From a virus (taxonomy: Duplodnaviria > Caudoviricetes), in the IMG/VR virus record IMGVR_UViG_3300030372_004573, positions 1-54,902 of that record: a DNA stretch of 54,902 nt; one strand, 5' to 3'. Below, in pieces: positions 4,425 through 33,300 of this stretch. The first letter of the stretch is position 1. Every line of letters starts with the position of its first letter. A program made the position numbers and the translations under genes. A model generated the notes under the pieces. The model ran no database searches and had not been told where the DNA came from. It was given only the letters and a program-made list of their open reading frames with translations.

Positions 4425-4425
4425 C

Positions 4426-6192: not shown

Positions 6193-6212
6193 TGAATAAT
6201 ATGGGAAGGAGT

Positions 6213-6293
6213 AGCCCTGATGGCCCCTCGACCATCAAGGCTTTGTGCAAGGGGAGACCTCCTACAAACTCCCCTTACTTGCTGACATAGCAA
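6213..6293 (-). promoter_or_regulatory. Three consecutive hairpins in the leader upstream of polA
   Basis: Inverted repeats at 6213-6242 (11-bp stem with one G-U on the - strand), 6249-6276 (AAGGGGAG/CTCCCCTT) and 6279-6293 (TTGCT/AGCAA). Confidence 0.5.
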
Positions 6294-6295
6294 AC

Positions 6296-6640
6296 TTATT
6301 CTTCGGTATTCCCCTCCGAATTATTTGACTCCTCTTTTAGGGTTGCGGTGCTAACTTTATCATCAACCGTCCAAGTTGCTGTGTTGGTAGTTGAAACAAA
6401 GTCCCCTTCTTTCTTTATAGTTTCACTAAAGAAATTGATCAGACAATCAATTTTCATTTGCTCTTGCTGTAATAAAGCAGTTTTAGTTACTAGGTCTTTT
6501 TTAATCTCCACCAAACTTTTTTGATGGTCTAATATAACTTGTTTATATTGATTTGGTATTTCAATACGGTCAGAGTCCGTAGTAAATGTTTTACTGTCTA
6601 CAGTATCCATCTCTTTAATTTTATCTTCTAATTCACTCAT
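6296..6640 (-). CDS. Hypothetical coiled-coil protein
   Basis: 114-aa ORF tightly packed in the replication operon. Confidence 0.65.
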   Translation of the reverse strand: MSELEDKIKEMDTVDSKTFTTDSDRIEIPNQYKQVILDHQKSLVEIKKDLVTKTALLQQEQMKIDCLINFFSETIKKEGDFVSTTNTATWTVDDKVSTATLKEESNNSEGNTEE

Positions 6641-13162: not shown

Positions 13163-13888
13163 ATGGCTGTTTCGGATCTATTTAAATCTTTATTTAAAAA
13201 CAAAAAGAAAAAAAATAAAAACTATGACCCTTCTAATCCTGCAAGCCCCACTAAGTTTTTAAAAGGTAAGGAGAATACTAAGCCAACACTTACTGAGCCT
13301 GAATTTTTTCCACTCAAAAAGACAGATTCTAAACTTGCTTCAGAAATTGCTACTGCCAAAAAGTTTAAAAATTATGCTTTAGATGTTGGAAGAAACGCAT
13401 CGACACCTATTCCTTCGGACGTAGAAATTGTAGGTAGAGGTAAATCCGCAACAAGAAGGATTGGGACTAACGACCCAGAAATGGGGTATGAGGGTACGAT
13501 AAAACCTTTAGGTATACAGAAACCCCGTTCAGAAGATCAACCTGATAGGAACGTCGTACTCATGGGGATAGCGGATAGGAGGGCCGCCAGAAAAGAAGCA
13601 AATAAAAAAAGGTACGAAGAACAAATAGCAGCTCGAAATAAAAGAGTAACGGCAATGCGGGCAAAAGGAGGTCAGTTTAGGCCAACTAATTTAAAACGGG
13701 AAGAACTTAATGCCCTAAGGCAAGCCGTCCGTGATCAAGCTTTTACTGAACCATTGGGTCGGAATACACCGTTAGGTAAAGCATCTGCTAATAGACAGCA
13801 GAGACAACTTGCTATGAAGCAAAGGAACATTGATTCTAAAGCTAAAAAAGAAGCAGAAAAAAAGAAGAAAACCGATAATCAAGATTAA
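13163..13888 (+). CDS. Highly basic (Lys/Arg-rich) protein, putative internal virion protein
   Basis: K/R-rich low-complexity sequence. First gene of the operon containing the giant protein. Confidence 0.6.
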   Translation: MAVSDLFKSLFKNKKKKNKNYDPSNPASPTKFLKGKENTKPTLTEPEFFPLKKTDSKLASEIATAKKFKNYALDVGRNASTPIPSDVEIVGRGKSATRRIGTNDPEMGYEGTIKPLGIQKPRSEDQPDRNVVLMGIADRRAARKEANKKRYEEQIAARNKRVTAMRAKGGQFRPTNLKREELNALRQAVRDQAFTEPLGRNTPLGKASANRQQRQLAMKQRNIDSKAKKEAEKKKKTDNQD

Positions 13889-13898
13889 AATAAAGTTT

Positions 13899-15320
13899 AT
13901 GAGTTTAGAAGATTTATTATCAACAGTACAACCTTTCGGGCAATCTATGGCTGCGGGGAAGAGATCAGTAGGCCCACGTTCTGCTAAGTACAGAGTAGCT
14001 GCTCGTAGGCTCGGAGGTAAGTTTACTCCAGAAGGCAGAGAGATGTTAATGAAAGGAGAACAGCTTCGTTTGATGGAGCCCAACATAGCTACTCCAGAGT
14101 CTAGAGACTTAATGAATAAAGGGGAGCAAATTAAAGCTGCATATGCGAGTGGGGGTCTAGATCTTGCTAAAGATTTGAAACCTTTAAGGCAGCAGTGGTT
14201 CCAAGATGTGCAAGCTTCAAGTTTATCTTCAGAAGATAAAGAAGGTATTCGTCAGATGTTTACTAAAGATTTTTTAGACGCAGGTAAAGAGTTAGACGCA
14301 GAGGCTCAAAGGAATTTTAATTTAAAAAGCCAACAACTTGGACTAAAAAAATCCAAACAAGACATCCAAAATAATAAAACTATTCTGGAAACAGGCAAAC
14401 TTAGTTTAGAAAGTGCTAAAAGAAAAGACACTAGAGCCCTTAATGAGTTAAATAATGAAGCTTTAACTTCTACTTTTATTGATGAACAATTAATGAATTT
14501 GGAAAACGCAGAAATGTTAATTACGAGGAACCTTGACGGGTCAATAAAAGATATAACTCCATTTAAATATGAGGGAGAGGAAAAAAAGAAAGCTGTAGCT
14601 GAGGCTCGTGAAAGAACACAAAATGCTATTACAAAGCATTTAGCTCAAAACCCTGACTTAAGTCCATCGTCTTTAAGAGCCCTTGACAGTTTAGCTCAAC
14701 AAGTAGGTGTGCGTGTTAAGAGAGCAGAAGCACTTGAAGATAGACAGCAATCATTTAAGCAGGGAATAGTAAGTATGATTGCAAACATGGCTATTTCTAA
14801 AGGCGTTGAGGGTATTGACCCAACTGACCTAAGTGAAACAAACATAACAAATATGCTAACGAAGGTAGCGAAGGCCAATAAAGCTGACTACCAAAGGAAA
14901 AATAATGCAAGACTTGTAGATAATATCTTAGCGGTGACTAAAGAAATTTCATCTCCATACATGGACTCCTTAAAAAGTTTTCCTGAGAGTGGTGCTGACT
15001 TCAAAGCAATACCAAGAACCAGTTCAGAAGCGGCTAGAGCACAACTTGAATCATACATTGAAAGAGCAAAAAATTTCCTTGAGGATCTTGAGATTGAGTC
15101 TCCAGAGGTAAGTGAAAAAATATCAGAATTAGAAGCTAGAATAAAAGCGGATGAATTTTTAAATGTTAGCAAAGGGGTAGACGGTCAAAAATATTATATG
15201 ATTTCAAATGCAATTGAAAACGTAATGGTTAGCATAAACTCACTTATCTACGGAGATAAGAAAAGAGTTCTTTCTAAAGAACAACAAGATGCTCAAGATG
15301 CCTACGGTAATAAACCTTAA
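13899..15320 (+). CDS. Helical putative internal virion/ejection protein
   Basis: Long ORF (track start 13830; ATG 13899 avoids overlap), coiled-coil character, directly upstream of the giant protein. Confidence 0.6.
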   Translation: MSLEDLLSTVQPFGQSMAAGKRSVGPRSAKYRVAARRLGGKFTPEGREMLMKGEQLRLMEPNIATPESRDLMNKGEQIKAAYASGGLDLAKDLKPLRQQWFQDVQASSLSSEDKEGIRQMFTKDFLDAGKELDAEAQRNFNLKSQQLGLKKSKQDIQNNKTILETGKLSLESAKRKDTRALNELNNEALTSTFIDEQLMNLENAEMLITRNLDGSIKDITPFKYEGEEKKKAVAEARERTQNAITKHLAQNPDLSPSSLRALDSLAQQVGVRVKRAEALEDRQQSFKQGIVSMIANMAISKGVEGIDPTDLSETNITNMLTKVAKANKADYQRKNNARLVDNILAVTKEISSPYMDSLKSFPESGADFKAIPRTSSEAARAQLESYIERAKNFLEDLEIESPEVSEKISELEARIKADEFLNVSKGVDGQKYYMISNAIENVMVSINSLIYGDKKRVLSKEQQDAQDAYGNKP

Positions 15321-15331
15321 GTTTATATTTT

Positions 15332-18300
15332 ATGTCTGAAAATTTTAAACAAAAAGAAAGTTTAGCCTTTGGTTCTGTTACAGAGCACAACACCTTTGAA
15401 ATAGACCCCTTACTAAAAAATGAAAACGACGAACCCGTTGAACCTGTAAATCAACTTGCTAAGTTTGCTCAGAATAGAATTATTAGCGGGATAGCGCAGG
15501 GAGAAAATGTTTATAAAAAACTTAATGCAGAATTAGAAAATTCTTACAAAAGAGCATTAGAGTTAAATCCAGATATAGGCTCTTATGGAGATTGGCAAAA
15601 TATAGTATTACCCAACACGGTTGACCCAAAGAAAGAACTAAGTCTTTTCGAAAAATTAGATCAAGGTTTAGTTGAAACTGATGGAGTTCTTGTTCAAGAA
15701 TTTAAAAAGTTTACTGATGATCCTAGTTATGTTTCTCCTGAGTTGGCAGAAGCTCAAGACAAATTTAATAACCTTAAACGAATAGCTATTGGGACTAGCC
15801 GCTCCGAAGAACAAGATCCTGAATCTTCTACAAGTTTACCTTTTGTATCAGTTAAAGATGAAGAGGGCCAAGATATTGTTTTAACCCAGAATGCTGAACA
15901 ATTAACTACTGAGCATGATTCTTTAGAGAAAGCCTTGAGGGTGTCTCTTGATAGTGGGGCCTTAAAACCAAGAGATTTACTAGCCGTAGCTAGTAATTTA
16001 AAATTTGCAGAAGGCACTGGAAAAACTTATTCCGATTTACAAAGAGAATATGAGTTAACATTTAAAGTTGTAGGTTTCACAAACGAGATACTTAACCAAG
16101 CACAACAGGTAAAAGAGCGAACGGGGGATAGTCCAAGATTATATCACTTTAAAGGGGACTCTGACTTAGTTAAGTCTTTAAATGCACTAACACTTGATAT
16201 TAGACTAGATCACCAAGAGCTAACTAATACTACTGACACAGTAGATCCTGAAAAGCGGTACTTATATGAGAAGCTCCCCGCTTTTGCTCGTTTTGCATTG
16301 CTCGCAGGTACCGCACAATGGGAAGGAATAAAGTCAAAATACCGTGACTTTTTCCCGAAGCCAGACCCATTAAATTTTGGGGTACCCCTTACTCCTTTAG
16401 AAGAGCCTTTAAACCACGCCCTAGAAAATTTATCTGAAGACGACATTAACTTCAGTAAAGATAAATCAGCTATAGCTGAAAGGTTTAGAGAAAAATTCCA
16501 AATAACTAATTTATCAGATGACCAAGTTATTGAGTCTGTAAAAAGAGCATTACACACACAACTCCATAGCAGTGGATTACTTCCGTATATTATCGACGAA
16601 AAAAGTTTATTTTTAAATATTAAGAAAGAGGAAAACTTTGGAATAACTGTCCACCCCGATTTATTTGTTAATAGAAAAGCTTTTGAAAAAGCAGTTAAAC
16701 AACACCCTGATTTAACAAAAAAAGACATTGAAGTTGTAAAAGAAAAAAGAAAATTATTTTATGCTTCTCAAGCCCGTGAACTTGAAGACCTTATTTTTAG
16801 TAGTGCCCCCACTACAAAAAAATGGTTAGAAGCAAAAGAGAAAAACTTTAAGTTAAAGGCAGAAGATCAAAAAGATTTAGCTACTATTCTAGAAGAGTTT
16901 TTATCCGACGATGAAAACTTTAGTTACTTATCAGATAACTTGAGAAGCTTTGGTTTTTCGGCTGTCTCCTCTGTGCCTATGATTTACCATAGCGTAGTAG
17001 GTGCTTTAGGTTCTGAGAGCTCAACAAACAAAGCTATAGAAATACAATTAAGAAAAGACGAAGGCAAACAACTTTCTTCGGCTTTTGGAAGAGGAGGATT
17101 CTTTTTAGATGTATCTAATGTAGCAGGTGATTTAGTCATTGATTTAGGAGCTACAGCACTATCAGGAGTTCCCGCAAACTCAGCAGCTAAAAAATTAGCT
17201 CTAGAAATAGCTGGAAAAAAATTAGCAGCCCAAGGATATAAAATATCTAAAATAAAAGGAACTACTAATGCTTTACATGCTGCTTTCTTTTCTACAGATA
17301 CAGCATCAAAAAAGAAACTTGCTGCCCAGCTATTGACAGCAGGAACAATTACTCCCCTTAAAACAAAGAAATATACTGAGGGTATTGTAAAAGTTTTGGC
17401 AGATGACTTCGCTGCTTTGTCTTTATCTAACACAGAAAAGCTTACTGACTTAGGAGCCCTTGCATTTAGCGTAGGGGCCCCCTCAGGACTGAGGTCAGCC
17501 TCATATGCCTATTCTTCTTATATGCAGGCTCTTCCTGATAATTTAAGTTTTGATGAGAAGAGGAAAAGGGCCGTACCTTTAGCTATTGCTAGAGGGGCCC
17601 TAACCGCTGCTATAACTGTAGGGGCTTCTTATCTTGGGCGAGGAGGTGCTGAAGCTGTAGTGGCGAAAAGGCCAAGTAAACTTATGGAGCTTAGGGGATA
17701 TAAAGCGACTAAGAACGCTTTAGAAAATCTAGCCAAAATGTCAAGAGCAACTGATAAGGTAGGTAAAGGTTTACTTGTTTCGGAGGTAGCTGAGATAGCG
17801 GCTGCTATTGCGAGAAATGGCCTTAGGAGGTCTATGCTTTTTGGATTAGGGGCTAAGACTGTCCTAACAGATTTAGCAAAAGTAGGAATCGATGAAGGTA
17901 TTGAAGAGGGACTTGATGAATTTTTAGGTAGCTTTGTCGATGAGTATGCGACAGGTAATAATATTACTTTAGGAGAAAGATTAGGTTCTACTGCTTATGC
18001 GGGGTTACTCGGTTTAACTATGGGGGTTGGCGTTTCAGGTACCGCTAAAGTTATTGGGGCTGCTTCAAGCAAATTGGGTATAGGGGATACAACTAAATCA
18101 ACTGAGAATGTATATAGGCAATTAGTAGATATGGTAATGGAAGAAGCTTCTACTTTAAATGAAGCTGCTTCTAACGCTAGGAACGCCCAAGCTCCTCTAA
18201 CTGCGGAAGTCTTGGAACAAAACAGGGAGCAGCTTCTAGCTGGAGTTGCTAAAAATCCTGTTGCTTCGGCTGCTGTTTTTAGAATGAGTGTTACTAGAGA

Positions 18301-21300
18301 CACTAATATATCTGAAGAAAGAGAGTCGAGTGAAATTGTAACTGTAAACGCTGAAGACGTTACAGGAGTATCTGAAACTACTAATGAGAAAGGAGAAACA
18401 ATTTTTGCCGTTGAATACTCTCCTGTAGACGCTTCAGGGGAAGTGCTTACTGCTTTTACAAAAAATGCATCGGTTACTAGATTGGATGTCAGAGTAAGAG
18501 AAAATTACAAAATTGAACAAGAAATAATCCAACAGATAGAAGAGGAAGTTCTTATTCCTAATGTAGAGGATCAGAATGAAGCTCTAAGAACTGCTGAAGG
18601 TATCGAAGCGGCTACTAATAATTTTATTAAAAAGCATAAAGTTGCTTTAAAGAATAACAATATTTCAATTTTAATTGACCCTACCGAAGAGCAACAGCAA
18701 GGGTTTATAGATACAGTACAAGGAAACCAAGAGTATCAAATTCTTCAGGGAGCAGAAAGCTCGGTTAAAATTAATGAGGAGGGGACAGTATTTATTATTA
18801 TAAATACAGCCAACACTTCTGAAGTAACAAACTCTATACCCAAGCAAAGAAGAACTACTTACATGCAGAGCGTTTTTACTGAAGCTCTAGCAAGTTCTTT
18901 TGAACTGGTATCTATCAGAGACAAATACTTTGGATTAGAACCAGAAAATCGTGGGGATCTTTCTTTAGAGCAGTTTATTAATCTTGATAGATTAGCTGTG
19001 TATGAAGAGATGTCTCAATATGAAAGAGACTGGGCATCCTCTCTTATTCTAGGTGAAGAGGTAACTGAAGGATTATCTGAAAAAGTTTCTAACAGCTCTT
19101 TAATTGCGGCTACTCATATCAATTCTCTGCTCCAGTTAGATATGTCTGGGCAGGTTAAAGGAGTTCAGAAAACTGCATGGGCAGGGAAAAGTCGAGGGGG
19201 TGCTTTATCTAAAAATGTTAAGCAAAAACTTTTTGATATATTGTCCTACCTTAGAGCTGCTATAAGAACAGCAAGAGATTCTTCTAGTAGAGCGTTCCTT
19301 AGAAACCATGTTAATTTTATATCTGATAATTTAACTAAACCTTTCTTTGACGCAGTATCAAATCTTAGTGAAGCACAACAAGCACAGGCTATTGATGAAG
19401 CTAGCCAACAAGATGGTGAAATATTAAATCAAAAAGTAAACCCAATAGAAGATTCACCTATACTAGGTAATGTCCCACAGGTTTCTTTAGAAACCGTACC
19501 AAAAGAAATAAAAGGGAAGAAAGAGTCAGCTAAACCTTCTATTTTTCCTGAAGGAGAAGTAGGAGATTTAAACTTTGATGATGTAGAGCAACCTTCCGAA
19601 TCCGATACTGTTATAGGGCGCAACGCAGAGGGGGATCTTATAGTGTTCCAGTCAATGACTTTAGCTGAAGCAGAAGTCTACCTAAGTAATCTAGAAAAGT
19701 TAAAGGGTAACTTTATTGAGCAGACAACGCCAGTAAAGATTTTTATATCTCCTAACTCTACACCAAACACAGATTCTAACACACAGATCATACTTCAAAC
19801 TAAAGTTAACTCTCAAGCTTTTTCACTGAACAGTGTACAGGGTAGCCCTGATACCCCTTCGTTGAGGCAAGCTATAATAGAGAACCCATTGTTTTCTAAA
19901 GGCATGGTAGAAAATAGTTTGGATGGAAGCAATGTAGTTTATAAGATAGAAGAAGATCCTGATAACCCTTCTTCGTTTAACTTATATGCTTTCCCTAAAG
20001 TTCTTAGGTTTACAAGAGAGCTAACTCCTTCGGATATAGACGCTATTAATACAAACACTGCTGCTGGGGTAGACCCTAAAAAACTTAGTCAAGGGACTGC
20101 TCTTGAGATAGCTAAAAAACTTTTTGATAAAACTATACAGGTTCCCTCTAATCCATCCTTTTCTGAAGAAGCTAGTGCAGAAATTGATATCAACACTGAG
20201 CTATCCTCCGAAACAGCTAGTGAAGATTACATTGAACCTGTACAGCAAACCAGCGTAGATGGTACAGGGTTAGACACTCAAGATCCACCAAAGGCTAAAA
20301 ATAAACAAAGAGAAAAAAGAAAGAAACAAGCTAAGAAAATTTATGCTTCTTTACAGCGAAGGCTTCTTAGAGAGGGCACAAGGTTTTTTGAAGGGGTTAG
20401 AGAAAGTGGAGCCGCTGCTTGGTATGATCGATCAAAGATGGCAGTGGGTATAAACCCAGAGGTACTATATGATATATTAGTAGATGAAAACAATCTAGCC
20501 GCTGCAAAAGCTATACTGAATCTAGCAGTGGACGAAGAGTTAATTCATCAAATTTCTTGGGAAACTCTTTCATATAAAGAAAGACAACAAGCAATTAATG
20601 AGCTTTTAAATGCTGATCGTAGAGGAGCAAATGCTCTTATTAGAATGGTACAAGAGTATAACACAGAGATTCAAAATTATACTCCAGAAGAAACTATCCA
20701 AATTTTAAGATTAGGACTACCTGAAACAGACTCGTTACCTGCGGGCATTGAAGATACTCCCACTAACAGGGCCCTTAAAGACGAAATAGCTGATTATGTT
20801 TTTGAAGAGCTAATAAGAAAACATGTATCGCTTGTTAATGGTAGGGGTGCTACTGAGCCAGATTATGATTTTTTAAGAGGAAAAGATAAAGAAGGAAAAT
20901 CCACTAAGAAAGTAGGTGTACTAGATGTTTACAAAAAGTATATTGAAAACTTTTTTATTGGCCGCTTGAGAGCTAAGAAAGCATTAAGAAAAGATTCTAA
21001 GCTTGGGCCTTATTATGCAACAGCTGTTGCTAAAGTAGCTCAAGAATTTAAAGCCGCTAAAGAAGGATTTAGAAGAAGACCCGATTATGACAAGTTGGAT
21101 CTAGATATAGATTTAGGAGTATACTCGAAACAGAGTACCTTGATAGGTACAGAAATTTCAACTGTTGCTCCTGAAGAGGAGCAAAGAGAAGAGTGGCTCT
21201 CTGAAATTGACCCTGAACAAGTAAAGGCCTCTGTCGTAAAAGGCAGAACAGTAGGCACAAGAAGTCCTTCAGCTAAGGGTAAATTAGGGGAAGGGGCTGA

Positions 21301-24300
21301 TCCTAATAAGGTAGTCACATTAAAAGATCTCAGGGAAAACCCAGAGGCTTATAAGAAGAATGCTTTAATACTTTTAAATTATCCAGTCGTTGCCAGAGAA
21401 TTTCAAGACGACCCATTACTTGAAAAAGTAAGAAAAGCGAAGGCTCCTGTAAATAAAGCCGAACTCAAAAAGCAACAACTAAGACAAGATATTAAGTCGG
21501 CTAAAGATCGTTTAAAGAGTGATCTAGTTACTTACAAAGCGAATGAAAGATCCGACGAACTCAAGCCTCAAAGAAAGCAAGAAGCAGATAGCTTAAAGAA
21601 AAAATATTCCGATAGCCAAAATGCGGTTAAAGAAATAGAGAGAGAAGTTAATAAATTAAATAACTCTTTAAAGAGGGCTAACAAAAGACTTAGGGAAACT
21701 ATAAGTAAAGAGAACAAGAAGATTAATGCTCTTATAAAGAGAGCCCGCTCTGCTGGTAACGAAACTGTTTTAAAAGAACTACAGCAAAGAAAAGTTGATG
21801 TAAAGAATATCCTTAGTAACGACGGCAAGACCGCAGAATTAATTGAAGGCATAAATTCCAGCCTTATAGAAGCTAGACAAAGACTTGCTACTATAAAAAA
21901 ATTATCTAAATCTAATAAGTCTGCTTTTGAGAAAGCTCTGAAAGAATTTAGTAAACCTACAGTTAATAAAAATTCAATCAAATTGTCAGCGTCTCAAGTT
22001 GTCACTACTGTAGAGCAGTTTGTAACAGATATTGAAGAAGGCACTCCTGTCCGTGTTGGAGCTAAGGCTCTTATAGTTAAACTCAACGCTATTAATAAAA
22101 AAGAAAAAGAATTAAAGTCAGCTATTCAAGATGCTAAGACTAAGACTACGAAGTTTGGAGACGTTTTAAAGAGGCTATCTAAATCAGAAAAAGCATTTCC
22201 TATTAATACCGCTGACGAAATATATGCAAGTTTAAATGATGTAGCTCAACAGAACTTGGGAATGTTAATTAAACTATTTCCACAAGATCTTCGTGTGTAT
22301 GCTTCTCTGTGGTACGATGGGGCTAACATAATAGCTAACAAGTTTGCAAAAACATTTGATATCTCTGTAGAACAAGCGGCTGCTGTGCTTGCTGTATTCA
22401 GTCCACAGAAAGACTGGTACATGAACGTATCACTGGCTGAGAGGACAATGCATATATTTAAAGCCAGACAAGCAGCTTTGTTTGATGGTTCAATGGTGTC
22501 TAATTTCCTACGAAGAGCAGGGGAGCCAGAGTTAAAGTATGACAAAAACGGCAATCCTTTTTATGAAGGGGATGCGGTACCTGTATATGATGAAGATGGA
22601 AACCACACCACTGATGAAAATGGTGTATTACAGTTTGATAACTGGGGCAGTGAAAAAGCCAAAGACAAGTTTGAACTTTCAAAACAAGTTTTAAACTTAG
22701 GTTTAGCAGGTAAACGGTTCAACGAGATAGAAGATATTTCTTTCCCCCACAAAGGAAAGCAAAAGAAATTTTCTAAAGAAGCCCTACAGGCTCGTTTTAT
22801 CAGGATGTTTTCTGAGGCTGCGGAGAACGAAGCTCTTAGAGATCCAAAAACATTTAACGTCATCAGACCAGATGGTGCAATTCTTGAAAGACCTTCTCTG
22901 TCTGAGAAAGGAGCTCCGAGATCTATTGCATGGGGTAGCTATAGCACTATTGAAAAAGCAATTAAGATTTTAAATGCAGATCAAGACAACTCAATAGATG
23001 TAATATCCAATGAGCTTGGACTGATGCATAAGGTTAGATCTTTTTACAATAATATATCTGACCCATCTAGTCGTGCAGGCCATGTCACTATGGACACCCA
23101 TGCTGTGGCTGCTCTTTTACTTAAACCTGTCAGTGGAAATAGTATAGAAGTAACTCAAAACTTTGGGGGTCAAGGTACAGCATCTGATTCTAACTTAGGG
23201 ATCAGTGGTTTATATCCTGCATTCGCAGAAGCTTATCGATCAGTTAGTTTTCTAAATGACACTACTAAGGAAGAGTATCTAGTTCGTGAGATACAATCGA
23301 TTACATGGGAAGCAGTACGTATGTTGTTCCCTTCCAAGTGGAAGAGCAACAAGAATAATGTCCGTGCGATTGAAGAGTTACACGCAAAATATGAAAAAGG
23401 AATAATTAGTTTAGAGCAATTACAGGAGCAAATTTATTCTTTTGTCCAAACTTCACAAGCTAAGGGCATGCCTGCGGATGAGGCATTAAGTGTCACTGAA
23501 GGTATCCAAAGTGCTAATACTGTTAGAGGACTAGGAGTAGGCAGGCCTGATTGGGGGCAAGCAGCTCCCGTTTCAGTAGAGGCCCCTCCAAGTGAACAGG
23601 AACAATTTACATCAATACGTTGGAGAAATCTTGAAACTCGTCATGCAGATCTTGCTAGTAGAGACATAAGTGAAAAACAAGGAATCTTTAAAGAAGAAAT
23701 TGCAGAGCTGTTTAGAGAAGCTTCAAGAAAAGCAGAAGAAAAAATACCTGATTATTTTTCATATGAGGAACCAGCAGGTTTACTAATGTACACTGACTTA
23801 ACTGAAGAAAAATATATTTACAAAAACCCTAAAGGTTCTGCCCTTGATAGGGATGCAAACTTAAAAGATTACAAACAGTTTATATTAACTCCTGCTAACA
23901 AGTACATGTTCAGCCCAAACATGACACCACGAGAGGCCGTACTTGCGTTGGGGCTAAAGGAGTATTTAATCATAACGGACGGAACAAGTAATTTAGAACC
24001 TGACAAGGTTATTATTCATGTAAGTAATGGGACAACCCGACCTTATAATCAAACAGGTGCAGGAGTAGAAGTTGTTAAAAGTTTTTATGGGGAGGAGGTA
24101 GAAGTCATATTTGAGGCAGAAAAGACAGACTTGATGAAGGCTATGCTTGATCCAGATCAAGCACTTAAAGCTCAATTAGAAAGAAACTTAAAAAAGACCA
24201 ATAGATTTTTATATGACCGTAGAGGTAAACTAATCCCCCTTAGTGTTAGGTTTGCTCCCTTTAGTGAAGTTAAATATGAACCTCAAGATGTCGAAGATCC

Positions 24301-27300
24301 TATAGAATTATTTGATACTACTGAGAGAATCATAAGAAATCCTTATGACCGTGATGCACGAAGAGCTGAGTATTCTGCTAACTTTATTGTGCCGATAGCT
24401 AATGATTTAGTCACCAACATAGAGAGTATTTTAAATACTGTAATTGATTATAGAAATCCTAAAGGTGAAGAATCAGCTATGGTTCCAATAGCTAAGTTTT
24501 TGTTGGAGACAATATCTGACGACATGTTGAGGTGGAGAGTTTTCCATGATCCTAAATTAACACAGCTAAAAGACCCTGATAACAGAAGTTACTCTTCTCC
24601 AGATCCTGATGTAGGTATTATGCTCGATACTGGTTCTGCGATGGTAGTACCTAAAGATTTCCCCCAAGCTAAAAAGTATACCCGTAATACTAAATATATT
24701 ACAACTCCTACATGGATTAAAAATAAATTTAATACACCTATAGATGCTATCACAAAATGGAAAGGGACAATCGATGGCTTAGATGCTCTAGTAGAGGGCC
24801 AGAGGTACTTGCCATCAGAAGATAGTTTTAATTATGTTCCCCCAATAGATGATTTCGGTGACTATAATAATCTGTCCCGCAAGCGTAAAAATGTTTTAGA
24901 AGATTATTTAAGATATCATATTGATAAGTATGAAGTAGGGGAAACTATATTTGATTCTGAAGGAGGCACAGACCTTGACGAAATATCAACGTATACTGAT
25001 ATTAACTTAAAGGATAGACCTGATTTAGAAAAGTACATATCTTGGGATTATTTCTTTAAGTTTTTAGGTGACAATTCATTTTATAAAACTAAGGAGGGTA
25101 AACACTGGTTAAGACCAAGACCTGATCCTTCAGGTGCTAAAGTATCTTATAAAGTAAGGGGGGTATCCCCCTCTACTATTATACATGAAATTTTCCATGC
25201 CTTAACTCAACGTGAAATTGATAGATATGTAATAAATACTAGAGCAAAAGGACTTAAATTATATAATGCGTATAAGAAAAAAGCTTCAGACATTTCAGTG
25301 CCTGAACCTTTACGAGAGCTGCTTAGAGTTTATTTAAAAGCCGTTGATTATGGAGATGAATATCTAGAGTTAAGAGAGAAGAAAGGAACTATAGTTAAAC
25401 CCACAAAGTCGTCGAGGCACATCTCAAAGATGATGAACTCAGGATATAAACGTGGGGCCGATAAAGCATCAGAAAGACAATTTTATGGATTAGCAAATCT
25501 TGATGAATTTGTTACTATGTCTATGATGAGTCCTGAATTTCAGATATGGCTTATGTCTATACCTGATCTTGAAGCTGCTCAAAATGGAGAAGCAAGAAGT
25601 TTGTGGGATAAGTTTACTGAGATAGTAACAAACATAGTAAATCATTTAAGGAAAGATCCAGACTTTGTACGAGATAGAGAAGTAGAAGGTGGTGCAAATC
25701 TCTTCAAGTCGGCTATCAAGTCCGTTATGGAAGTAGCCGCTTTGAATGGGAACGTAAATCGAAACTTAGCGAACATGGGATATGACTCGGTAAGTAAATG
25801 GAAAACTATTAAGGGAGCTAATGCAGGTAAGGCAGAAGCTGAGGCCTTACGTAAGGGCAGAGACGAAAGCTTTATAGAAGAACACGGGCTTAACTTGCCT
25901 CCTGTTACTAGAGAAATTCTTAGTGGAGTCTACAAGTATAATCCAGAAGAAGCGTCGGGTACTCAGAACCCTGCTACTGTGGCTACTTACAAAAATTTAT
26001 TCCCTTATATAGAAGATAAAGCATTTTCAAAAAGGTTAACAGAGTTCATGGCTAAATACGATGTTGTGGACTGGGGTTCTGGAATGGGCAGGGGCACTAA
26101 TAAGCTTAAAGAAGAATTAAAAATTTCCATTGCTGATGGTTATATAACCCAAATAAGAAAAGGACAAGTAAATATAGAATCTTACGAGCCTTACTTTGTT
26201 GAAGGCAAAGGAAACTTCCCTCCCAGCTTAAAAAGAAAACCAAGAAAAGAATCTCAAGATCTTATTATTAGTAGTCAAGTTATCAACGTACTACCCGCAG
26301 ATGAAAGAGCAGAATTGTTGGAAGATATTTATGCAAGTTTAAGAGAAGAGGGCCAAGCTATAATAACTACTCGTTCAGTGGGGCAAGTTCGAGATGGTAT
26401 TAAAGAAGAAAGAAGAAAATTAATAGGGCCCGCTGAATACATTTCTTCTGTAGATGGTAAGGCAACTACTTTCCAAAAAGGGTTTGATAAGAAGAGTTTA
26501 AAAAAGTTTATTGAAGAAGTTTTACCAGAAGCAGTTGTAACCACAACGGGTCTAAAGATTAGCCCAGTATACGCAATCATTACAAAACCAATAGGCGCAG
26601 GGCTTGAGTTAGATTCTGAACCTGACATCCAATCAACAAAGGTTACTTCTAAAACTCAACCTTTAAAAGGTTCTTTAGATCAAGCGTTTATAATTATGCT
26701 GAATCCTGAGGGAGGTGTTCTAAATGATGTTAAGGAAATGCAAAACCAAATAGCTAATTATGGTTTGGGAATGATTCCGTTAGCTGAAGAAGATCTTCAT
26801 TTTACTATGGTGGGGAGTGCATTCAATGAACAAGTATCTATCAACAAAAATATAAAACCTGATTTTGATATTACTTTAGGGCCTCCTCAGTATGCTGTGG
26901 AAATTAAGCCTAAAGAGAATGCATTAGGGATGGAGATTAAACGGTCTGTGTTTGCCAGAGTAATTGAGCAGGATAAGTTCAAGGAGTACACTGATAAAGT
27001 TATTGGTAGGAAATCTCCAGACACCGATAGAGATTATCACATTACTCTTGCTACGGCTACAGGAGGCCCCAGAAGTGCTGTAGCATACCCCAACAAAAAC
27101 GCATCCTTGTTCTTTGAACAAGGCCCTCGAACACAATTTTCTTATAGTAAGTACGAAGCAGGGCCTGAAAAGATGAGGATACTGGACACGCCCGCTAGTG
27201 AAGCCGCAGGAGAGGCACAGGAAAAATTAGAAAAGCTGAGGGAAAATGAAATGTTTTGGAATACTGCTGCTTTAAGAGGTGACCGTAGACTGAACTCGGC

Positions 27301-30300
27301 TGACCAAGCATTCCCCCTAAGGGCTGGGCTTACCAGTGAAATGGGACTAAGCCTTCCTGAACGGAGGTTTTTGGAAGAAGTTCCTGACTTTGTTAAGAAC
27401 TATAAACAGGTACAAAAAGTTTTACAGAAAACAGTTAATGAAACTGGGGAGGTCAGCCGTGAGAATATGCCTATTATCCAGCCTCAGCAAATGCAAGCAT
27501 TCGCTTCATTTGTCTCAGAGCAAACAGGGTCTACTGTTAATCTTAAGCAAGAGCAAATTCCCGCTGCTTCTTTAAAGCCTTATCAGACTGAATTGTTTTT
27601 CCCTAAAACAGTTTGGTTCGCCCTTCAATATTTTAATAATTTAGAACTTGCTACAGAGGATCTTGTGAAAAGACCATTCTCTTTAATAAGTTCTGATAAC
27701 TATATTATTGACGGGAACCATAGATGGGGCCAGATAATGTTGATAAGTCCTAAATCTTCTATTGAGGGTACAAGGATAAATTTGCCTGTTGCAAAATTAC
27801 TTCCTCTTGCCCGAAAGTTTTCTGAGCTAGTAGGAAATGACAGGGCAACAGATAGAGGAGGGTCTGATCTTTCCCAGTTCACCAAAATAAAAGGAAACTC
27901 AGAGTCCTTTGAGGAAACACGAGCGGCTGAAAGAAGTGCTGCTGAAGAACAAGCTGAGTCTATTGCGTCTAAAGCAAAGCTTGCTACAAGCAAAAAACAG
28001 TTACTGTCTTTATTTGGGCCGAAAATGTACAAAGAACCTTTAGGTACGGTTGTGGTAAAAGAGACTATTCAAAATTCTTATGATGCTATCAAAGACTTAA
28101 AAGAAATAAATGAAGATCTTAAACCCGAAATTGAATACGGAAGCTGGGATCTTTCTAGGCCGCAAAGTATGGATAATCTACAACCGTGGTCGTGGGGTGA
28201 CCCTGTTATTAGAGAGGCTGATGACGGTAGAATGGGTGATGAAAAAGACACTTTCTTAGCACCACCTCCAGAGATTATAGAAGATGTTCTAGAGCAACTT
28301 AAAAAAGGAGAAGATATTAAAAATAGCCAGTACTTTTTTATAAGAGATAATGGCATAGGGATGACTCCTGAAATAATTACCTCTGCTTTCTTTACAATAG
28401 GAGGTACTTATAAAACAAACAAGAGACCTTCTGGAGGACTTGGTGTAGCTAAAATGCAAATGTTGAATTCAGCCGACGAGATTTATTTGCAGACTGTTCG
28501 TGATGGTTTGGAAAGCACTGTAAAAGTTGACAACGAAACTTTAATGGCTGAAGAAGGAGAAGGTGAAAACCCATTCTTCGACATAGTTACTAGAAAAACT
28601 GATGCTCCTTCTGGGACTCAAATATGGTTTAAATTTCCTCAAGAAATATATGATAAAAAAGTAGATTTAACAGAAAAATTTGCCGTAGGAAATCTTTTTG
28701 ATGAGTCTATTAGTATAGAAATGAATCATTTCAAGCCACCTTTCATGTTTGGTGGTGGCGATAAATCGACTTTTCAGACACAGAAAATGGATGACTTAGT
28801 TAACTATGATTTTGCATTACATAGATTAAGTACTCCCCAAGCAAACGTAGATGTTTATGTTCATAAAATAGGTCGATACGACAAAGCAGGTAAGAAGATT
28901 TCAAAGGCACTGTTGCCATGGGGACACCGACTAGATAACGGTTACTCTACTATATATTCTAACGGACTATATCAATTTGAAGATAGGTTAGTAAAAGAAA
29001 ACCCTAACGAAATTCTTGGGGATTCCATTCCTTTCCACTTTATAATAAACGTACGTCCTAAGACTCCTGCTGCGGATATAAACTACCCTTTCAATAACAC
29101 AAGAGAAGGGTGGTCTCCGAATTGGGGCGGAAAAGGGGATAAAAGTTTTTATGGGGAGCTTCACCCAATAGACGAGGAAGTCACACGTTTGCAAATGAAA
29201 TACAGGGACGACTACAATCAACAAAGGTTTGTCCAAGAGTTTGACATAAACAAAGGTATTGATGGCAAACCTCCTACACCAATGGTTCCTGTTATTTACA
29301 ATAACATGGATTTTGATTTATCGGAGCAGGAACAAAATTTCATGACCGACTTTTCTAAAGTTGTTTTTTACGTAGCTGATCAATACTTAGCGTTATGTAA
29401 AGAAGCCAATGCTGAGGGGCTATACCCAATGAATCACAGCGATTTGGAAAATTCAGTATTAAATTCCGAAAAAACTTTAGAGAATAGCAAAGACCCAGAT
29501 GTTGTTTCCTATCATTATGGGTCAGCATTATCTAAAAATTGGGGAGGTGTTCAAACTAACATAGCTCCCCGAATGATTTTAGTTAATCCTGTTTATCATG
29601 ATCCAATGTTTAACAACGATGGTTCTTTAAGTGGGTATATAACTACTAAAGGAGCAGCCGCTGTTTTGGAAGATATAATAAGGCATGAAGTAAATCATGT
29701 AAGTAATAAAAAAGAAGGCGCTAATTTCACTTATGGTTTTTCAATTCAAAAATTAAAGTATGAAGCTGTTGAAAAAATAAAAGAAAATGCTATCAATGTA
29801 ATAGAAAATATAATAATAAATAATTATGAAACCTTCAAAGGACTTAGACAAAAATTTGTTAAGGGAAGCACTAAGTTTCTTAACGCAGAAATTCAAGGAA
29901 ACAAATTCGTTAGAACATTCGATGATTTTAACGATGCATCTAGCGGAAAAATACGGAGCGAAAGGGAGATCGTTGAACAAAACTTTGGGGAAGGCGTTAG
30001 ACCTCAAGACATCCAAGTCACCGATGGAAATATTTCACTCATTGAAGCAGTTAGCCGAAGAACCTTCCGACACGACGTAGACTTCGACCCCCCTTCATCA
30101 GACAATGTACAGGATACACGGATCGGGGTACAGCCTACAACGGACTGGACACTGTACGCAGGTAAACAAGTTGGCGGTTTATATATTTCTTCGGAAGCTA
30201 TAGAAAATGGTTACTCTGTTTTAAGCAAACCTGCTAATCAAGAAAAGAAGAAGAGGTTTGAAGAGGCTAAAGTTAGGCTTGAAACATATCTAGAGGAAGA

Positions 30301-33300
30301 AAGAATACAGGCGGAACTAAATGGGGAAGTATATGTACCCTTCAGTTATGACGTTGTATCTATCGAGAAGGATCAAGTCAGGTTCGTACTTATGAGCGAC
30401 CTTACTGAGGCACACCCACACGTAGTAGAGTCACTCAGAGTACCCATCGACACAGAACAACCTGTACAAGAAGGACGAACAGGCAACGCTATCTATCATA
30501 GGATGGAGCAAGTCTTAGGGTTCAAACATCCTTTGTATCAGTATCACAAAACAATTACTGATCTTGAGGAAGCACTTGGATTGTTAAACCTAAAAGATGA
30601 TAGCGGGAAGAAAGTATTTCCGAGTGGGTCAGAAAGAGTTTGGAAGCAACAAGTAGAATCTACTGGATACAGATATGATTCTCTGAAAGAAGAACACCGC
30701 AAGATAAAAGAAAAATTCTTTGGTGATCCTCAAGATACACTTATCGGTCAGGAAGATATAACACAAACTCCTGAGTACATAGAAAGCTCAGAAGCTTGGG
30801 ACACTTTAATAGATATACTCCGTGCTGATATAAAAATTACAGAGGAAGATCCCGACGATATAGCTGGGCCAATACCTAACCCTGTTAAATTTTTACAGAG
30901 GAAAGTATATGGTAAAGATGCTGAAATGGGTTGGAGAAAAGGGGGTAAGTTATGGTCTTTATTCTATGGCCCTTATGAAAGGACACTAAGGAAGTACTTG
31001 AACAAGTCTGACTTCTTTAGGAAAGCAATCCAAGATGTGGTTCTTTCTTATAAGTCTACTACTGACAGGTTACTTAAAGAAACATACACCAAAAACGGAT
31101 TGGACATTCCGTCTCGGACAATCTTTGAAGCTACGGGTACCACTCAGTTTGCACCTTCAGAAGAAGTAGCACAAAGTATTCAGGATAATTATCTTAACAG
31201 AGTTGACGAAATAAATAAAGATTCTTCTCTAGAAGGTGATGAAAAGAAGGAAGCATTACTCGAAGCATACAACGCACGAGAGGCGGCTAAACAACAGGCC
31301 TCCCAAGACGTACTAAAAAGTGCTAGAAAACGTAAGAGTGAAGCTCTTGAAATAATAAGAAAAGATTCACCTGAGTTAGCTAAACATATTATTTCTTTAA
31401 GAAAACTAGCAGATAGTGTTTCGTCAGAGATAGGTAATATGATTTCATTAGCCGCTCCTAATTTGCAGTTAAGGATAGATGAAAGACTAGACATTTACTT
31501 AACAACTCAGTACAGGGCTTTTACCAGACCAAACTGGACAGAAGAATTTTTAGAGTTAGAAATGCATAGAACTGCAAGAGATCTATCATTGAATTATTTT
31601 GCAGATGAATATGTAAAGACACAAACAGAATATCTTGTAAGAGAAGGGGGTCTAGATAAAGAAACGGCTATAAAACAAGCACAACAAAACTTAGAAGATA
31701 AACCAGAGCTAAAGATGATGGCTCTTGAAAATTTCTTAAAATCCTATGATAAAGATTTTGGTGTAGATAGCTTAAAGAAAAAAGGTAACTTGCCAGCAGC
31801 TTTAAGGGGTGCTCTAGGAGAGTTTAGTGAAGAGACAAACATGGATGTTCTTTACAGAACTTTACTTAACTTAGGGACTTTAGTTTCCAAGATGTCCCTG
31901 AAAGACAAGCTTGTTAGCCAAGGTATTAAATCAGGGTGGCTTGTAACTCAAGAGAAAGCAGCACTTGAAAGGAAGAGAGCAGAGGAAGCAGGTAGGCCTG
32001 ACCCCTACGAAGATTATGTTGAGGTAGTTAAATCAAAAGACTCTTCAATATCAGAACAACTTGCAGGATCTTTAGATGATACAGGCGTAAAGATAACAGG
32101 AGAAAACTTTGAAGTTAAGTTAAACCCCGATGGTACTGTTAAAGAAGCACCAAGATCTAAACCACCGAGCTCTGATCCTTTAATTAATTACAGAGTTAAA
32201 ACAGAGGACGGATCAGTAGAAAAGAAAGGCAATTTATTAGCAAGGCCTGACGTTAAGCAAGCAATCTTACAAGTGCTCAACCCAAAACAAGGGATGACTA
32301 CTCCAGATAATGAGTATGTGCAGATTGCACTTAAACTTTTCGGGGGTATCGAAAAGAGTGTAGCGGGATTAACTGGTTTAGGTATGCTATCTAAAACATT
32401 GGGTTCAATACCATTTTACGAAAGACAAATATTAGGTTCGTTCCTTTTCTTATCCCAGAATGGAATACCAATATCAGGATACGTCCCTGAGTTAAAAAAC
32501 GAAATTGGTAGGTCTGTACTTCCTTCAGGAGTATTTAAAAAGAGAAGTTACTTAGAAGGAAGGTCTGCTGACAGAGGCGATATGGTTTACTACGCAAGTC
32601 TTAAATCTATGGGGGTTCTCGATGAAGGTATAGTTTATTCTGTTCTTAAGGATTTACTTTCAGGAAATATATCAAAAGAAGATGTTGAGTTAGAAATAGA
32701 CCACCTTAAACACCCAACAGAATCTATTTTAAAGAAAAGTAAACTGTTCCCTGAAGGGAGCACATCAGAGAAAGCTTTACAAAAAGCGGCTGCCCTCTTA
32801 AAAGGAGCAGGTAAAGTTAAAGATATTCCAATAGGTAAGGCCCAAGCTTTAGCTTTAGCATTAGATAATGCTATCAAAGTACAGGCATATGAGTATGAAA
32901 GATCTTGGTTGCTAGATGCTAGAGAGGACTCACAATCCGCAGAAAGAAATGATGAGTACAGAAATCTAAGCAGTGCTGAACTTGATGAGATGGCGGCACA
33001 GATAGTTCTTAGAACACAGCAATCGAGAAGCCAAAGTGCACCTATCGTTGAGTTCTTCAACCTACCTGTTATTAGAATAGTTACTGCTCCGTTCGCTCGA
33101 TTCTTGGCTGAGAACCCACGATTATTGGTAAACATCATGAGGCAGTCTTCTGCCGAAATGAACAGTTCTAATCCTGTTATAAAGGAACGGGGCTCTCAAA
33201 GGAATAAAGGTTTCTTATTTACTAACTTTGTTTTATACATGGCATTACCAATGTTCCTACAAAGATTTGTAGCAGGTTTAAGTGATGACGAAGAAAGAGT

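What the first reader, a model, noticed from the sequence alone, without database searches (positions are those of the whole stretch)
19601..30748. Recurring Q-x-T-x-[IV]-(G) linker marks domain boundaries in the giant protein: a candidate polyprotein processing code
Seen: SDTVIG (19601, aa1424), QQTSV (20243), QSTLIG (21131), QFTSI (23603), QSTKV (26630), QFTKI (27875), QDTRIG (30110) and QDTLIG (30731). Most sit in acidic/Pro-rich linkers immediately before or after an identified domain: peptidase|glycosylase, MTase|2H, ParB|GHKL, GHKL module|next domain, and the start of the C-terminal domain. Inference: cleavage sites for one of the protein's own zincin domains, releasing individual effectors (no prohead protease is evident in the window). 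Alternatives are threading signals for ejection or joints for domain shuffling.
Basis: partly seen in the sequence, partly recalled or inferred. Interest (0 to 1): 0.85.

Follow-up and report, generated by a model that had tools for sequence, protein, structure and literature searches.

The report
Junction motif in giant phage protein
A five-residue signature, Gln-x-Ser/Thr-x-Ile/Val, sits at nearly every joint between the modules of a 6,299-residue phage protein and is kept in distant relatives, so it most likely marks where the protein is cut into separate working parts, although no cutting has been shown.

Summary
All eight listed peptides are at the stated coordinates in one 6,299-aa ORF (15332-34231, +) of an uncultured phage. 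The raw count (8 Q.T.[IV] against 1.64 expected) does not survive a look-elsewhere test. Conservation does. In an alignment of 12 homologues (35-85% identity), Q-x-[ST]-x-[IV] is kept at six orthologous sites (aa 1934, 2758, 3767, 4182, 4927, 5134). That is 6 observed against 0.106 expected (P 2e-9), the top of 27,000 comparable patterns, and four other sub-clades used as controls gave nothing similar.

A seventh linker carries the motif at aa 1623 or 1638, depending on lineage. SDTVIG (aa 1424) is weak.

The sites coincide with cassette swap and deletion breakpoints. They lie in predicted coil in 5 of 5 modelled cases, use different codons, and are absent from the phage's other proteins and from 92 wider-family giants.

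The best reading is a clade-specific separator, most likely an endopeptidase recognition site, in a polyvalent protein (confidence 0.45). No prohead protease was detected. Cleavage itself is untested.

The parts
15332..34231 (+). Giant ORF of 6,299 aa (P0001) with 1 Cys. It has a conserved N-domain, a variable modular middle and a conserved C-domain.
16529..18181 (+). Conserved N-terminal domain (aa ~400-950), shared with 43-59 of 91 wider-family proteins. It holds one weakly hydrophobic segment at aa 747-768.
19601..19618 (+). SDTVIG (aa 1424). A weak motif-like site, kept only in close homologues and not significant by PSSM.
19721..19735 (+). QTTPV (aa 1464). A chance match, kept in 0/10 homologues.
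20243..20257 (+). QQTSV (aa 1638). The motif copy of the seventh linker, kept in 5/10 homologues. Distant homologues carry Q[LK]SS[IV] at the position aligned with aa 1623.
20243..21130 (+). Module aa 1638-1933, LPD23-like by protein-language-model features (score 0.95, 183 of 256 shared features). This is a lead only.
21131..21145 (+). QSTLI(G), aa 1934. Core site, kept in 10/10.
22307..22486 (+). Best DUF7178 (PF23802) stretch, aa 2326-2385, E 1e-20. The module aa ~1962-2743 is the only part shared with P0013-P0016.
23603..23617 (+). QFTSI, aa 2758. Core site, kept in 10/11, at the end of a 24-residue predicted coil.
25184..25198 (+). HEIFH (aa 3285-3289), a zincin-type HExxH present in 11 of 12 clade members and absent from P0012. 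It matches no Pfam or PDB profile.
26630..26644 (+). QSTKV, aa 3767. Core site, kept in 8/8. The homology of 10 homologues breaks at aa 3771-3779.
26645..27874 (+). Variable cassette, aa 3772-4181. Most homologues carry an unrelated sequence of roughly 135-225 aa here (P0003 shares its first ~70 residues with P0001), and P0010 and P0011 lack it.
27875..27889 (+). QFTKI, aa 4182. Core site, kept in 7/8. Homology resumes at aa 4156-4180.
29684..29698 (+). HEVNH (aa 4785-4789), a second HExxH. It lies in the optional module aa 4182-4926, which is absent from P0010, P0011 and P0012.
30110..30124 (+). QDTRI(G), aa 4927. Core site, kept in 10/10. In P0010 and P0011 it is fused directly to the linker of site 3767, with a single motif copy.
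30731..30748 (+). QDTLIG, aa 5134. Core site, kept in 10/10, and the last separator before the conserved C-terminal module.
30929..34021 (+). Conserved C-terminal domain (aa ~5200-6230). It defines a family of 483 representative proteins at E <= 0.001.

Best explanation
The giant ORF encodes a polyvalent protein. It has conserved N- and C-terminal domains that flank a string of exchangeable modules. In this clade, each joint between modules carries a short linear motif, Q-x-[S/T]-x-[I/V], in an exposed linker.

The alternating pattern (positions 0, +2, +4) suggests an extended strand read on one face by a partner. I think the partner is most likely an endopeptidase that cuts the protein into about eight pieces: aa 1-1637, 1638-1933, 1934-2757, 2758-3766, 3767-4181, 4182-4926, 4927-5133 and 5134-6299. 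Cutting would occur during or after packaging or delivery and would free the individual effector modules.

Shown:
- The motif is real.
- It is selected at the peptide level.
- It marks junctions.
- It is specific to this clade.

Inferred:
- It is a protease site.
- Which bond is cut. For a zincin with a hydrophobic S1' pocket, the bond before the I/V would be the natural guess.
- Which enzyme cuts. The embedded HEIFH domain is only one candidate, at about 0.2.
For: 1. Conservation. Six orthologous sites are kept in 7/8 to 10/10 homologues at 35-85% identity. That is 6 observed against 0.106 expected, P 1.8e-9, the top of 27,000 triples. Four other sub-clades gave nothing comparable.

2. One copy per junction.
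- BLAST homology breaks at aa 3771-3779, resumes at aa 4156-4180, and starts at aa 4919-4922 in P0010 and P0011. These three breakpoints lie at sites 3767, 4182 and 4927.
- The cassette aa 3772-4181 is replaced by other sequences in the homologues, while both flanking motifs stay.
- P0010 and P0011 delete aa 3772-4926 and keep a single motif at the fusion.
- P0012 has extra copies at its own junctions, residues 3091 and 3368.

3. Positional turnover in one linker, aa 1623 against aa 1638, with presence kept.

4. Only positions 0, +2 and +4 are shared between sites. The flanks are not homologous: hhalign probability is at most 38%, and mostly below 5%.

5. Codons differ between sites and between orthologues, including TCN/AGY serine switches.

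6. All 5 of 5 modelled sites are in or beside long coil.

7. Non-linker copies tend to be depleted: 5 observed against 12.6 expected, P 0.014.

8. Passages read from Iyer et al. 2017 (PMC5512222) predict processing of polyvalent proteins by embedded zincin-like peptidases. HExxH occurs 72 times against 2.0 expected in the central regions of 85 wider-family proteins.
Against: - No cleavage data exist. The phage is uncultured and has no relative in the phage collection.
- No protease is identified. The HEIFH region matches no Pfam or PDB profile.
- P0012 lacks both HExxH motifs but keeps the signature.
- No S78, S78_2, S77, ClpP or S49 prohead protease passed its cut-off in 4 related records.
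- A sub-threshold XkdF-like hit at aa 1072-1177 has no conserved His.
- The motif is not enriched in 92 wider-family giants: 158 observed against 189.5 expected. Their sub-clades show no analogous motif at this spacing. If processing is general in the family, it does not use a comparable code elsewhere.
- The depletion outside linkers becomes borderline (P about 0.05) once the expectation is rescaled by the wider-family ratio of 0.83 (my arithmetic).
- The clade holds only about four independent lineages.
- The AF2 models are of low confidence.
Confidence: 0.45

Rival explanations
1. The motif is a non-proteolytic docking strand. Each linker motif pairs by beta-augmentation with a repeated partner, and the protein stays intact. 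The partner could be a portal or capsid interior surface, a packaging chaperone, or a host periplasmic or cytoplasmic factor that pulls the unfolded chain in hand over hand. This covers the reader's 'threading signal'.
For: - The alternating i/i+2/i+4 conservation is typical of a strand read on one face.
- The sites lie in exposed coil.
- The motif is kept in P0012, which has no HExxH.
- The protein and 92 relatives are almost Cys-free: 21 Cys in 337,065 residues, against 0.91% in the phage's other ORFs. This fits passage in an unfolded state (inference).
- Some copies (DTLIG, DTVIG) look superficially like TonB boxes (recalled, not tested).
Against: - A docking signal has no obvious reason to sit at exactly every module joint, or to be reduced to one copy when two modules are deleted.
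- No partner is identified.
- The conserved Q and the polar +3 residue do not fit the recalled TonB-box consensus.
- The wider family, which shares the N- and C-domains and presumably the delivery route, lacks the motif.
Confidence: 0.25
2. The motif is a structural or evolutionary adaptor with no trans-acting reader. It would be a short cap that insulates neighbouring folds, kept because recombinants that join modules at this neutral, tolerated joint survive ('joints for domain shuffling').
For: - Breakpoints of cassette swaps and deletions fall at the sites.
- At site 2758 the motif is modelled as the first turn of the next helix.
- Several sites have conserved, site-specific flanks.
Against: - Non-homologous modules would not need the same three residues for folding.
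- There is no nucleotide repeat that could drive recombination.
- The motif shifts by 15 residues within a linker but is kept.
- Other sub-clades shuffle modules without any such motif.
Confidence: 0.15
3. The signal acts at the DNA or RNA level. It would be a recombination site, an internal start or a regulatory element that only looks like a peptide motif.
For: None beyond the coincidence with recombination breakpoints.
Against: - Q is CAA or CAG. T/S is ACN, TCN or AGY. I/V is ATA, ATC, ATT or GTT, across sites and orthologues.
- Only the encoded residues are kept.
Confidence: 0.03
4. The recurrence is chance, picked out after the fact.
For: The raw count ranks only 4th of 11,600 patterns. 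Two extra matches (aa 1464, 6097) are chance, and aa 1424 is weak.
Against: Conservation test: P 1.8e-9, 0 of 20,000 shifts, top of 27,000 triples. The controls are clean.
Confidence: 0.02

Closest known systems
Polyvalent proteins of phages and conjugative elements, with predicted processing by embedded zincin-like metallopeptidases (Iyer et al. 2017, PMC5512222; abstract and passages read)
   Same: - One huge polypeptide strings together many effector-type modules.
- HExxH motifs are embedded in it.
- One module is LPD23-like.
- A homologue sharing the DUF7178 module carries LPD1/LPD5.
- Release of domains by proteolysis is the published prediction.
   Different: The passages I read give no cleavage-site consensus. 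Here a defined five-residue signature marks the joints, and it is confined to one clade. The embedded HExxH domains match no Pfam peptidase or MPTase model, and one member has the signature without them.
Prohead-protease maturation of packaged head and ejection proteins in T4-like and phiKZ/SPN3US-like phages (PMC10052503 seen only as a search listing and abstract start; consensus sites L/I-x-E and S/A/G-x-E are recalled)
   Same: A short consensus is reused many times, so that large virion-borne proteins are cut into pieces.
   Different: - No prohead protease family was detected in 4 related records.
- The motif is not enriched in the phage's other proteins: 7 observed against 6.7 expected.
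- Most of those chance copies are not conserved. Of the 7 ORFs, 2 copies are kept (both in proteins about 70-96% identical), 4 are changed, and for 1 (terminase) the copy is changed in one record and not covered by the match in two others.
- The consensus is different.
Polyproteins of RNA viruses, cut by their own 3C-like or related proteases at Q-containing sites (recalled)
   Same: There is one recognition peptide per domain boundary. The sites co-vary within a lineage: T dominates at +2 in the close group, S in P0010-P0012.
   Different: This is a dsDNA phage. The residue after Q is not small (F, Y, D, S, R, E, ...), so Q is unlikely to be a 3C-type P1. No chymotrypsin-like protease was found.
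Demarcation motifs of polymorphic toxins (VENN of CdiA, PxxxxDPxGL of Rhs; recalled)
   Same: A short conserved peptide sits exactly where a conserved scaffold meets a hypervariable cassette, and it survives cassette exchange.
   Different: Here the cassette is internal and bounded on both sides. The motif recurs 6-7 times, also between constant modules, and the sequence is unrelated.

Membership tests
Polyvalent proteins (Iyer et al. 2017) | Many unrelated domains in one polypeptide of a phage or mobile element | tested here: met
   The record is a phage (terminase, DNA polymerase, primase, helicase, exonuclease, endolysin). The 6,299-aa ORF has a mosaic module map from homology breakpoints.
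Polyvalent proteins (Iyer et al. 2017) | Presence of LPD-type or other signature domains of the class | tested here: inconclusive
   Pfam finds only DUF7178 over its cut-off. LPD23 is suggested only by Atlas features (0.95, a lead). P0016, which shares the DUF7178 module, has precomputed LPD1/LPD5.
Polyvalent proteins (Iyer et al. 2017) | Embedded zincin-like metallopeptidase (MPTase) | tested here: inconclusive
   HEIFH and HEVNH are conserved in 11 and 8 of 12 clade members. They match no Pfam model at E <= 5 and no PDB profile hit.
Polyvalent proteins (Iyer et al. 2017) | Packaged in the virion and delivered with the DNA | not testable with these tools
   Only indirect signs exist: Cys avoidance, and a gene position two ORFs downstream of the large terminase next to a syntenic 496-aa ORF.
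Protease-processed polyprotein | Recurrent consensus peptide at domain boundaries, conserved in relatives | tested here: met
Protease-processed polyprotein | A cognate protease that co-occurs with the sites | tested here: not met
   P0012 has the sites without either HExxH. No prohead protease family was found. A protease acting in trans or an unrecognised one remains possible.
Protease-processed polyprotein | Mature fragments with termini at the sites | not testable with these tools
   The phage is uncultured and no proteomic data are held.
Prohead-protease substrates (T4 / phiKZ type) | The same site consensus in capsid, scaffold or other head proteins | tested here: not met
   The other 45 ORFs show 7 observed against 6.66 expected. 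Of the 7 ORFs, 2 copies are kept in relatives, 4 are changed, and 1 (terminase) is changed in one record and not covered by the match in two others.
Polymorphic-toxin demarcation motif (VENN / DPxGL type) | The motif directly precedes a C-terminal hypervariable toxin | tested here: not met
   The variable cassette is internal (aa 3772-4181) and flanked by the motif on both sides. The C-terminus is the most conserved part.
TonB box (recalled consensus) | An acidic-T-hydrophobic-hydrophobic-V strand near an N-terminus | tested here: not met
   The conserved residues are Q, S/T and I. Position +3 is mostly K/R/S/L, and the positions are internal. The comparison is with a recalled consensus only.

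The most novel reading that the evidence does not exclude
This clade of giant phage polyvalent proteins has its own 'separator code'. Q-x-[S/T]-x-[I/V] would be the cleavage grammar by which a dsDNA phage turns one 6,299-residue delivered protein into about eight independent effectors. New effector cassettes become functional simply by being inserted between two copies. That would be the first defined processing-site consensus for polyvalent proteins, and a polyprotein strategy in a tailed phage. A bolder reading (about 0.1) is that the copies are successive handles for hand-over-hand import of the unfolded chain.
Probability: 0.4. Interest if true: 0.8.

Novelty: new variant of a known kind. 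Interest (0 to 1): 0.62.

Why it matters
Polyvalent proteins are thought to be arsenals delivered with phage or plasmid DNA, but how a multi-thousand-residue chain becomes a set of working enzymes is unknown.

- **A testable prediction.** A conserved, junction-specific peptide gives exact predicted boundaries for expressing each module, a reporter substrate for finding the processing enzyme, and mutations that should abolish processing.
- **An annotation handle.** The motif can be used to cut these giant metagenomic ORFs into functional units.
- **A plug-in slot.** It suggests how new effector cassettes can be inserted without disturbing their neighbours.

The surrounding family is also worth knowing. 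It has 483 representative clusters, its members are mostly 2-5.5 thousand residues long, it is essentially Cys-free, and it has no cultured member in the phage collection.

Tried and rejected
- **Raw-count enrichment as proof.** Rejected: the pattern ranks only 4th of 11,600.
- **Extended repeat around the motif.** hhalign of windows from -25 to +60 around 8 sites gave no pair above 38% probability. The suggestive similarity between sites 1934 and 5134 (Q.TLIG.E.I..PE....E.W) reached only 3.8%.
- **PSSM search for further copies in P0001.** Nothing beyond the known sites. aa1638 scores 11.5 and aa1424 scores 8.3, both below the 95th percentile (13.7) of shuffle maxima.
- **Complex prediction of the HEIFH region (aa 3020-3445) with the 40-residue linker of site 4182.** No answer: score 0.00 and controls not run. 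This is evidence neither way.
- **XkdF-like protease inside the ORF.** PF14550 gives 16.7 bits, below its cut-off of 24, at aa 1072-1177 in the window only. There is no invariant His in the 11 aligned sequences, and Atlas features are not supportive (all below 0.9). Rejected as the protease.
- **Prohead-protease families and MuF.** PF04586, PF03420, PF00574, PF01343 and MuF (PF04233) gave no match at E <= 1 in G000-G003.
- **Family assignment of the HEIFH domain.** A three-sequence profile found nothing in PDB at E <= 5 and no peptidase in Pfam. Single-sequence PDB searches of aa 1424-2757 and 3767-4926 found nothing useful.
- **Foldseek of the aa 2701-3850 model.** Only weak SAM-methyltransferase matches (best E 5.7e-3).
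- **Cultured relatives.** None for the terminase-to-portal-side DNA. Only three distant DUF7178 hits. None for the C-domain. Cluster look-up gave no names.
- **A general linker motif in the wider family.** The F[DN]P enrichment turned out to belong to homologous domains.
- **Earlier notes of this scan.** None exist for this genome.
- **Literature.** Four searches found no paper that gives a cleavage consensus for polyvalent proteins or describes this family. Supplements were not available and could hold site data.

Full report
**What the window is.** The window is a whole virus record of 54,902 bases, 91% complete by CheckV. PHROG matches identify a large terminase, DNA polymerase, primase, helicase, exonuclease and endolysin, so it is a tailed phage. 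One ORF, 15332-34231 on the + strand, encodes 6,299 residues, a third of the genome. No relative was found in the phage collection, either by DNA or with the C-terminal domain as a protein query. The DUF7178 module gave only three distant hits.

**The observation.** The strict pattern Q.T.[IV] occurs 8 times. SDTVIG (aa 1424) has S in place of Q.
- By composition, 1.64 matches are expected (Poisson P 3e-4), and 2 of 5000 shuffles reach 8.
- Among 11,600 patterns of the same form, this one ranks only fourth.

On counts alone, the finding could have been picked out after the fact.

**Conservation settles it.** A word-index search with residues 1400-5200 returned 15 homologues out of 854 candidates scored. 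I aligned P0001-P0012 with MAFFT. P0013-P0016 were left out because they share only aa ~1962-2743.
- The relaxed form Q.[ST].[IV] has 9 matches in P0001, against 3.96 expected.
- Six of the nine are kept at the orthologous column in nearly every aligned homologue: aa 1934 (10/10), 2758 (10/11), 3767 (8/8), 4182 (7/8), 4927 (10/10) and 5134 (10/10).
- aa 1464 and aa 6097 are kept in 0/10, and aa 1638 in 5/10.

I then asked how often a conserved-Q column, a conserved-[ST] column and a conserved-[IV] column fall at spacing 0/+2/+4. The answer is 6 observed against 0.106 expected (P 1.8e-9; with I alone, P 6.6e-13). None of 20,000 circular shifts reaches 6. It is the most extreme of 27,000 residue-group triples, by about four orders of magnitude. 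The same procedure on four other sub-clades of the wider family (26, 12, 5 and 4 sequences) produced nothing better than P 3e-5. The method therefore does not manufacture such signals.

**Anatomy of the motif.**
- Across the six sites, only positions 0 (Q), +2 (T or S) and +4 (I, rarely V) are shared. Position +1 is often F/Y but also D, S, R, E and N. Position +3 is often K/R/L/S, and +5 is often G/R/K. Upstream residues show no common preference.
- Profile-profile comparison of 86-residue windows around the sites finds no extended repeat. The best pair, 3767 against 4182, reaches 38% probability, and the others are at or below 5%.
- Codons differ between the sites in the window (CAA/CAG; ACC/ACA/ACT; ATA/ATC/GTT) and between orthologous sites in three related records, including TCN/AGY serine switches. 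The constraint is therefore on the peptide, not on the DNA.

**Relation to modules.** BLAST of P0001 against the homologues shows the following:
- Homology ends at aa 3771-3779 in ten homologues, just after QSTKV at aa 3767.
- Homology resumes at aa 4156-4180 in seven homologues, just before QFTKI at aa 4182.
- The stretch between (aa 3772-4181) is a variable cassette. In most homologues it is replaced by unrelated sequence of roughly 135-225 residues, with both flanking motifs retained. P0003 is a partial exception, since its homology runs on to aa 3842.
- P0010 and P0011 lack aa 3772-4926 altogether. Their homology resumes at aa 4919-4922, and the fused joint carries one motif copy.
- P0013-P0016 share only aa ~1962-2743, the module that lies between sites 1934 and 2758.

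By my own arithmetic, 3 of about 12 distinct breakpoints lie within 15 residues of a core site, where 3% would be expected per breakpoint (P about 0.005). The other breakpoints (aa 1394, 2040-2093, 2227-2288, 2927, 3521, 3842, 4838) do not.

A seventh linker behaves like a classic short linear motif. The close group has QQTSV at aa 1638. P0008, P0009, P0010 and P0012 instead have Q[LK]SS[IV] fifteen residues upstream.

P0012 also has copies at two junctions of its own, residues 3091 and 3368.

**Structural context.** Two AlphaFold2 models were built on 11-12-row alignments: aa 2701-3850 (mean pLDDT 55.3) and aa 4101-5300 (mean pLDDT 39.6). Both are poor. All five sites they cover lie in, or at the edge of, coil runs of at least 15 residues. 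Such regions make up 19% and 34% of the two models, so the chance of all five falling there is about 0.0014 (my arithmetic). Sequence-based proxies agree only weakly:
- FoldIndex, P 0.04.
- TOP-IDP, P 0.046.
- Upstream polar/Pro content, P 0.18.

So 'linker' is supported, and 'acidic/Pro-rich' barely.

**Specificity.**
- The other 45 ORFs of the phage (11,108 aa) hold 7 relaxed matches against 6.66 expected.
- Of those seven ORFs, two copies are kept in related records, both inside proteins that are about 70-96% identical overall. Four are changed. For the last, the terminase, the copy is changed in one record and not covered by the match in two others.
- Within the clade, copies outside linkers tend to be rare: 5 observed against 12.6 expected in four lineage representatives (P 0.014). 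This becomes borderline once the expectation is scaled by the wider-family ratio (see below).

**The wider family.** A full HMMER scan with the C-terminal module (aa 5134-6299) found 483 representative proteins at E <= 0.001.
- Of the 148 new sequences returned, 92 are at least 2,000 aa long.
- 91 proteins match P0001. What they share is an N-domain (aa ~400-950; 43-59 of 91) and a C-domain (aa ~5200-6230; up to 91 of 91). Almost nothing in between is shared.
- The motif is not enriched in these 92: 158 observed against 189.5 expected, and none reaches P < 0.01. The signature is therefore confined to the clade of P0001-P0012.
- HExxH is very common in the family's central regions: 72 against 2.0 expected in 85 proteins, and 74 of 92 proteins have at least one.

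**Who reads the motif?**
HEIFH (aa 3285) is present in 11 of 12 clade members, and HEVNH (aa 4785) in 8 of 12. HEVNH lies in a module that P0010 and P0011 lack.
- P0012 lacks both, and the alignment shows the regions are deleted or replaced. Yet it has Q.S.[IV] at seven junctions. This argues against an obligatory cis-zincin, although a gene acting in trans in that phage cannot be excluded.
- The HEIFH region matches no Pfam model and no PDB profile, so its peptidase nature rests on the motif alone.
- Five prohead-protease families (S78, S78_2, S77, ClpP, S49) gave no match over their cut-offs in the window and three related records.
- The one sub-threshold XkdF-like hit, inside the giant ORF, lacks a conserved histidine.

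**Interpretation.** What is shown is a clade-specific short linear motif under peptide-level selection, placed once at each module joint of a polyvalent protein. The one-per-joint rule, the single copy left after module deletion, the turnover within a linker and the tendency to avoid other positions are what a separator read by an endopeptidase would produce. This also matches the published prediction that polyvalent proteins are processed by embedded peptidases (passages of PMC5512222). I put this reading at 0.45, and the HEIFH domain as the enzyme at about 0.2.

The alternating pattern would fit Q, S/T and I/V occupying P4, P2 and P1' of a metallopeptidase with a hydrophobic S1' pocket, but that is inference only. 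The alternatives are:
- a non-proteolytic docking strand (0.25);
- a structural or evolutionary adaptor (0.15);
- a nucleic-acid signal (0.03);
- chance (0.02).

**Domain labels.**
- Supported: DUF7178 (E 1e-20).
- Weakly supported: a methyltransferase fold before site 3767, and GHKL after site 4182.
- Not verified by any profile: glycosylase, 2H and ParB. By eye, two H-x-T-x motifs and a DGNHR motif are present, compared with recalled signatures.

**Novelty.** Four literature searches found no cleavage consensus for polyvalent proteins and no description of this family. Supplements could not be read. The idea of processing is known. The defined, conserved junction signature is new.

Noticed in passing
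window 15332-34231; P0023-P0170: Extreme cysteine avoidance. The giant protein has 1 Cys in 6,299 residues (aa 4689). The 92 wider-family proteins of at least 2,000 aa hold 21 Cys in 337,065 residues, and 77 of the 92 have none. The phage's other 24 ORFs of at least 150 aa have 0.91% Cys.
   Followed up: partly
window 16529-18181 and 30929-34021: The giant protein belongs to a large uncharacterised family: 483 representative clusters, many of 3-5.5 thousand residues. The family is defined by a conserved N-domain and C-domain around a hypervariable middle. The only hydrophobic segments (KD >= 1.4 over 19 residues) lie in these two domains, at aa 747-768 and 5966-5984.
   Followed up: partly
P0004 residues ~3878-4025 and P0006 residues ~3757-3979: The cassette that replaces aa 3772-4181 in these homologues begins with a YYHGT-type motif, reminiscent (recalled) of H-Y-E ADP-ribosyltransferases. 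The slot seems to hold different effector types in different phages.
   Followed up: no
P0043 residues 2768-3198: A distant family member carries both halves of the window's cassette (28-42% identity), but in swapped order and without the flanking motif. Cassettes therefore move between clades.
   Followed up: partly
window 18545-18862: A sub-threshold match to the XkdF-like phage protease model PF14550 (16.7 bits, cut-off 24), covering profile positions 18-116, inside the giant ORF. No histidine is conserved there in the homologues.
   Followed up: yes
window 1118-1453: This 111-aa ORF is 86-96% identical to its counterparts in records G001 and G002, whose giant proteins are only about 45% identical to the window's. 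This points to strong mosaicism between these phages.
   Followed up: no
window 13830-15320: The 496-aa ORF directly upstream of the giant gene has no family match but is syntenic (35-36% identity) next to the giant gene in all three related records. It is a candidate partner or portal-side protein.
   Followed up: partly
window 21131-21220 and 30731-30820: The sequences after sites 1934 and 5134 look alike beyond the motif (Q.TLIG.E.I..PE....E.W). The similarity is not significant by hhalign: E 0.011, probability 3.8%.
   Followed up: yes
clade homologues, position +2 of the motif: Use of T or S at +2 tracks lineage across sites. T is at every site in P0001. S is at most sites in P0010-P0012. 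With about four lineages, this cannot be separated from shared descent.
   Followed up: partly
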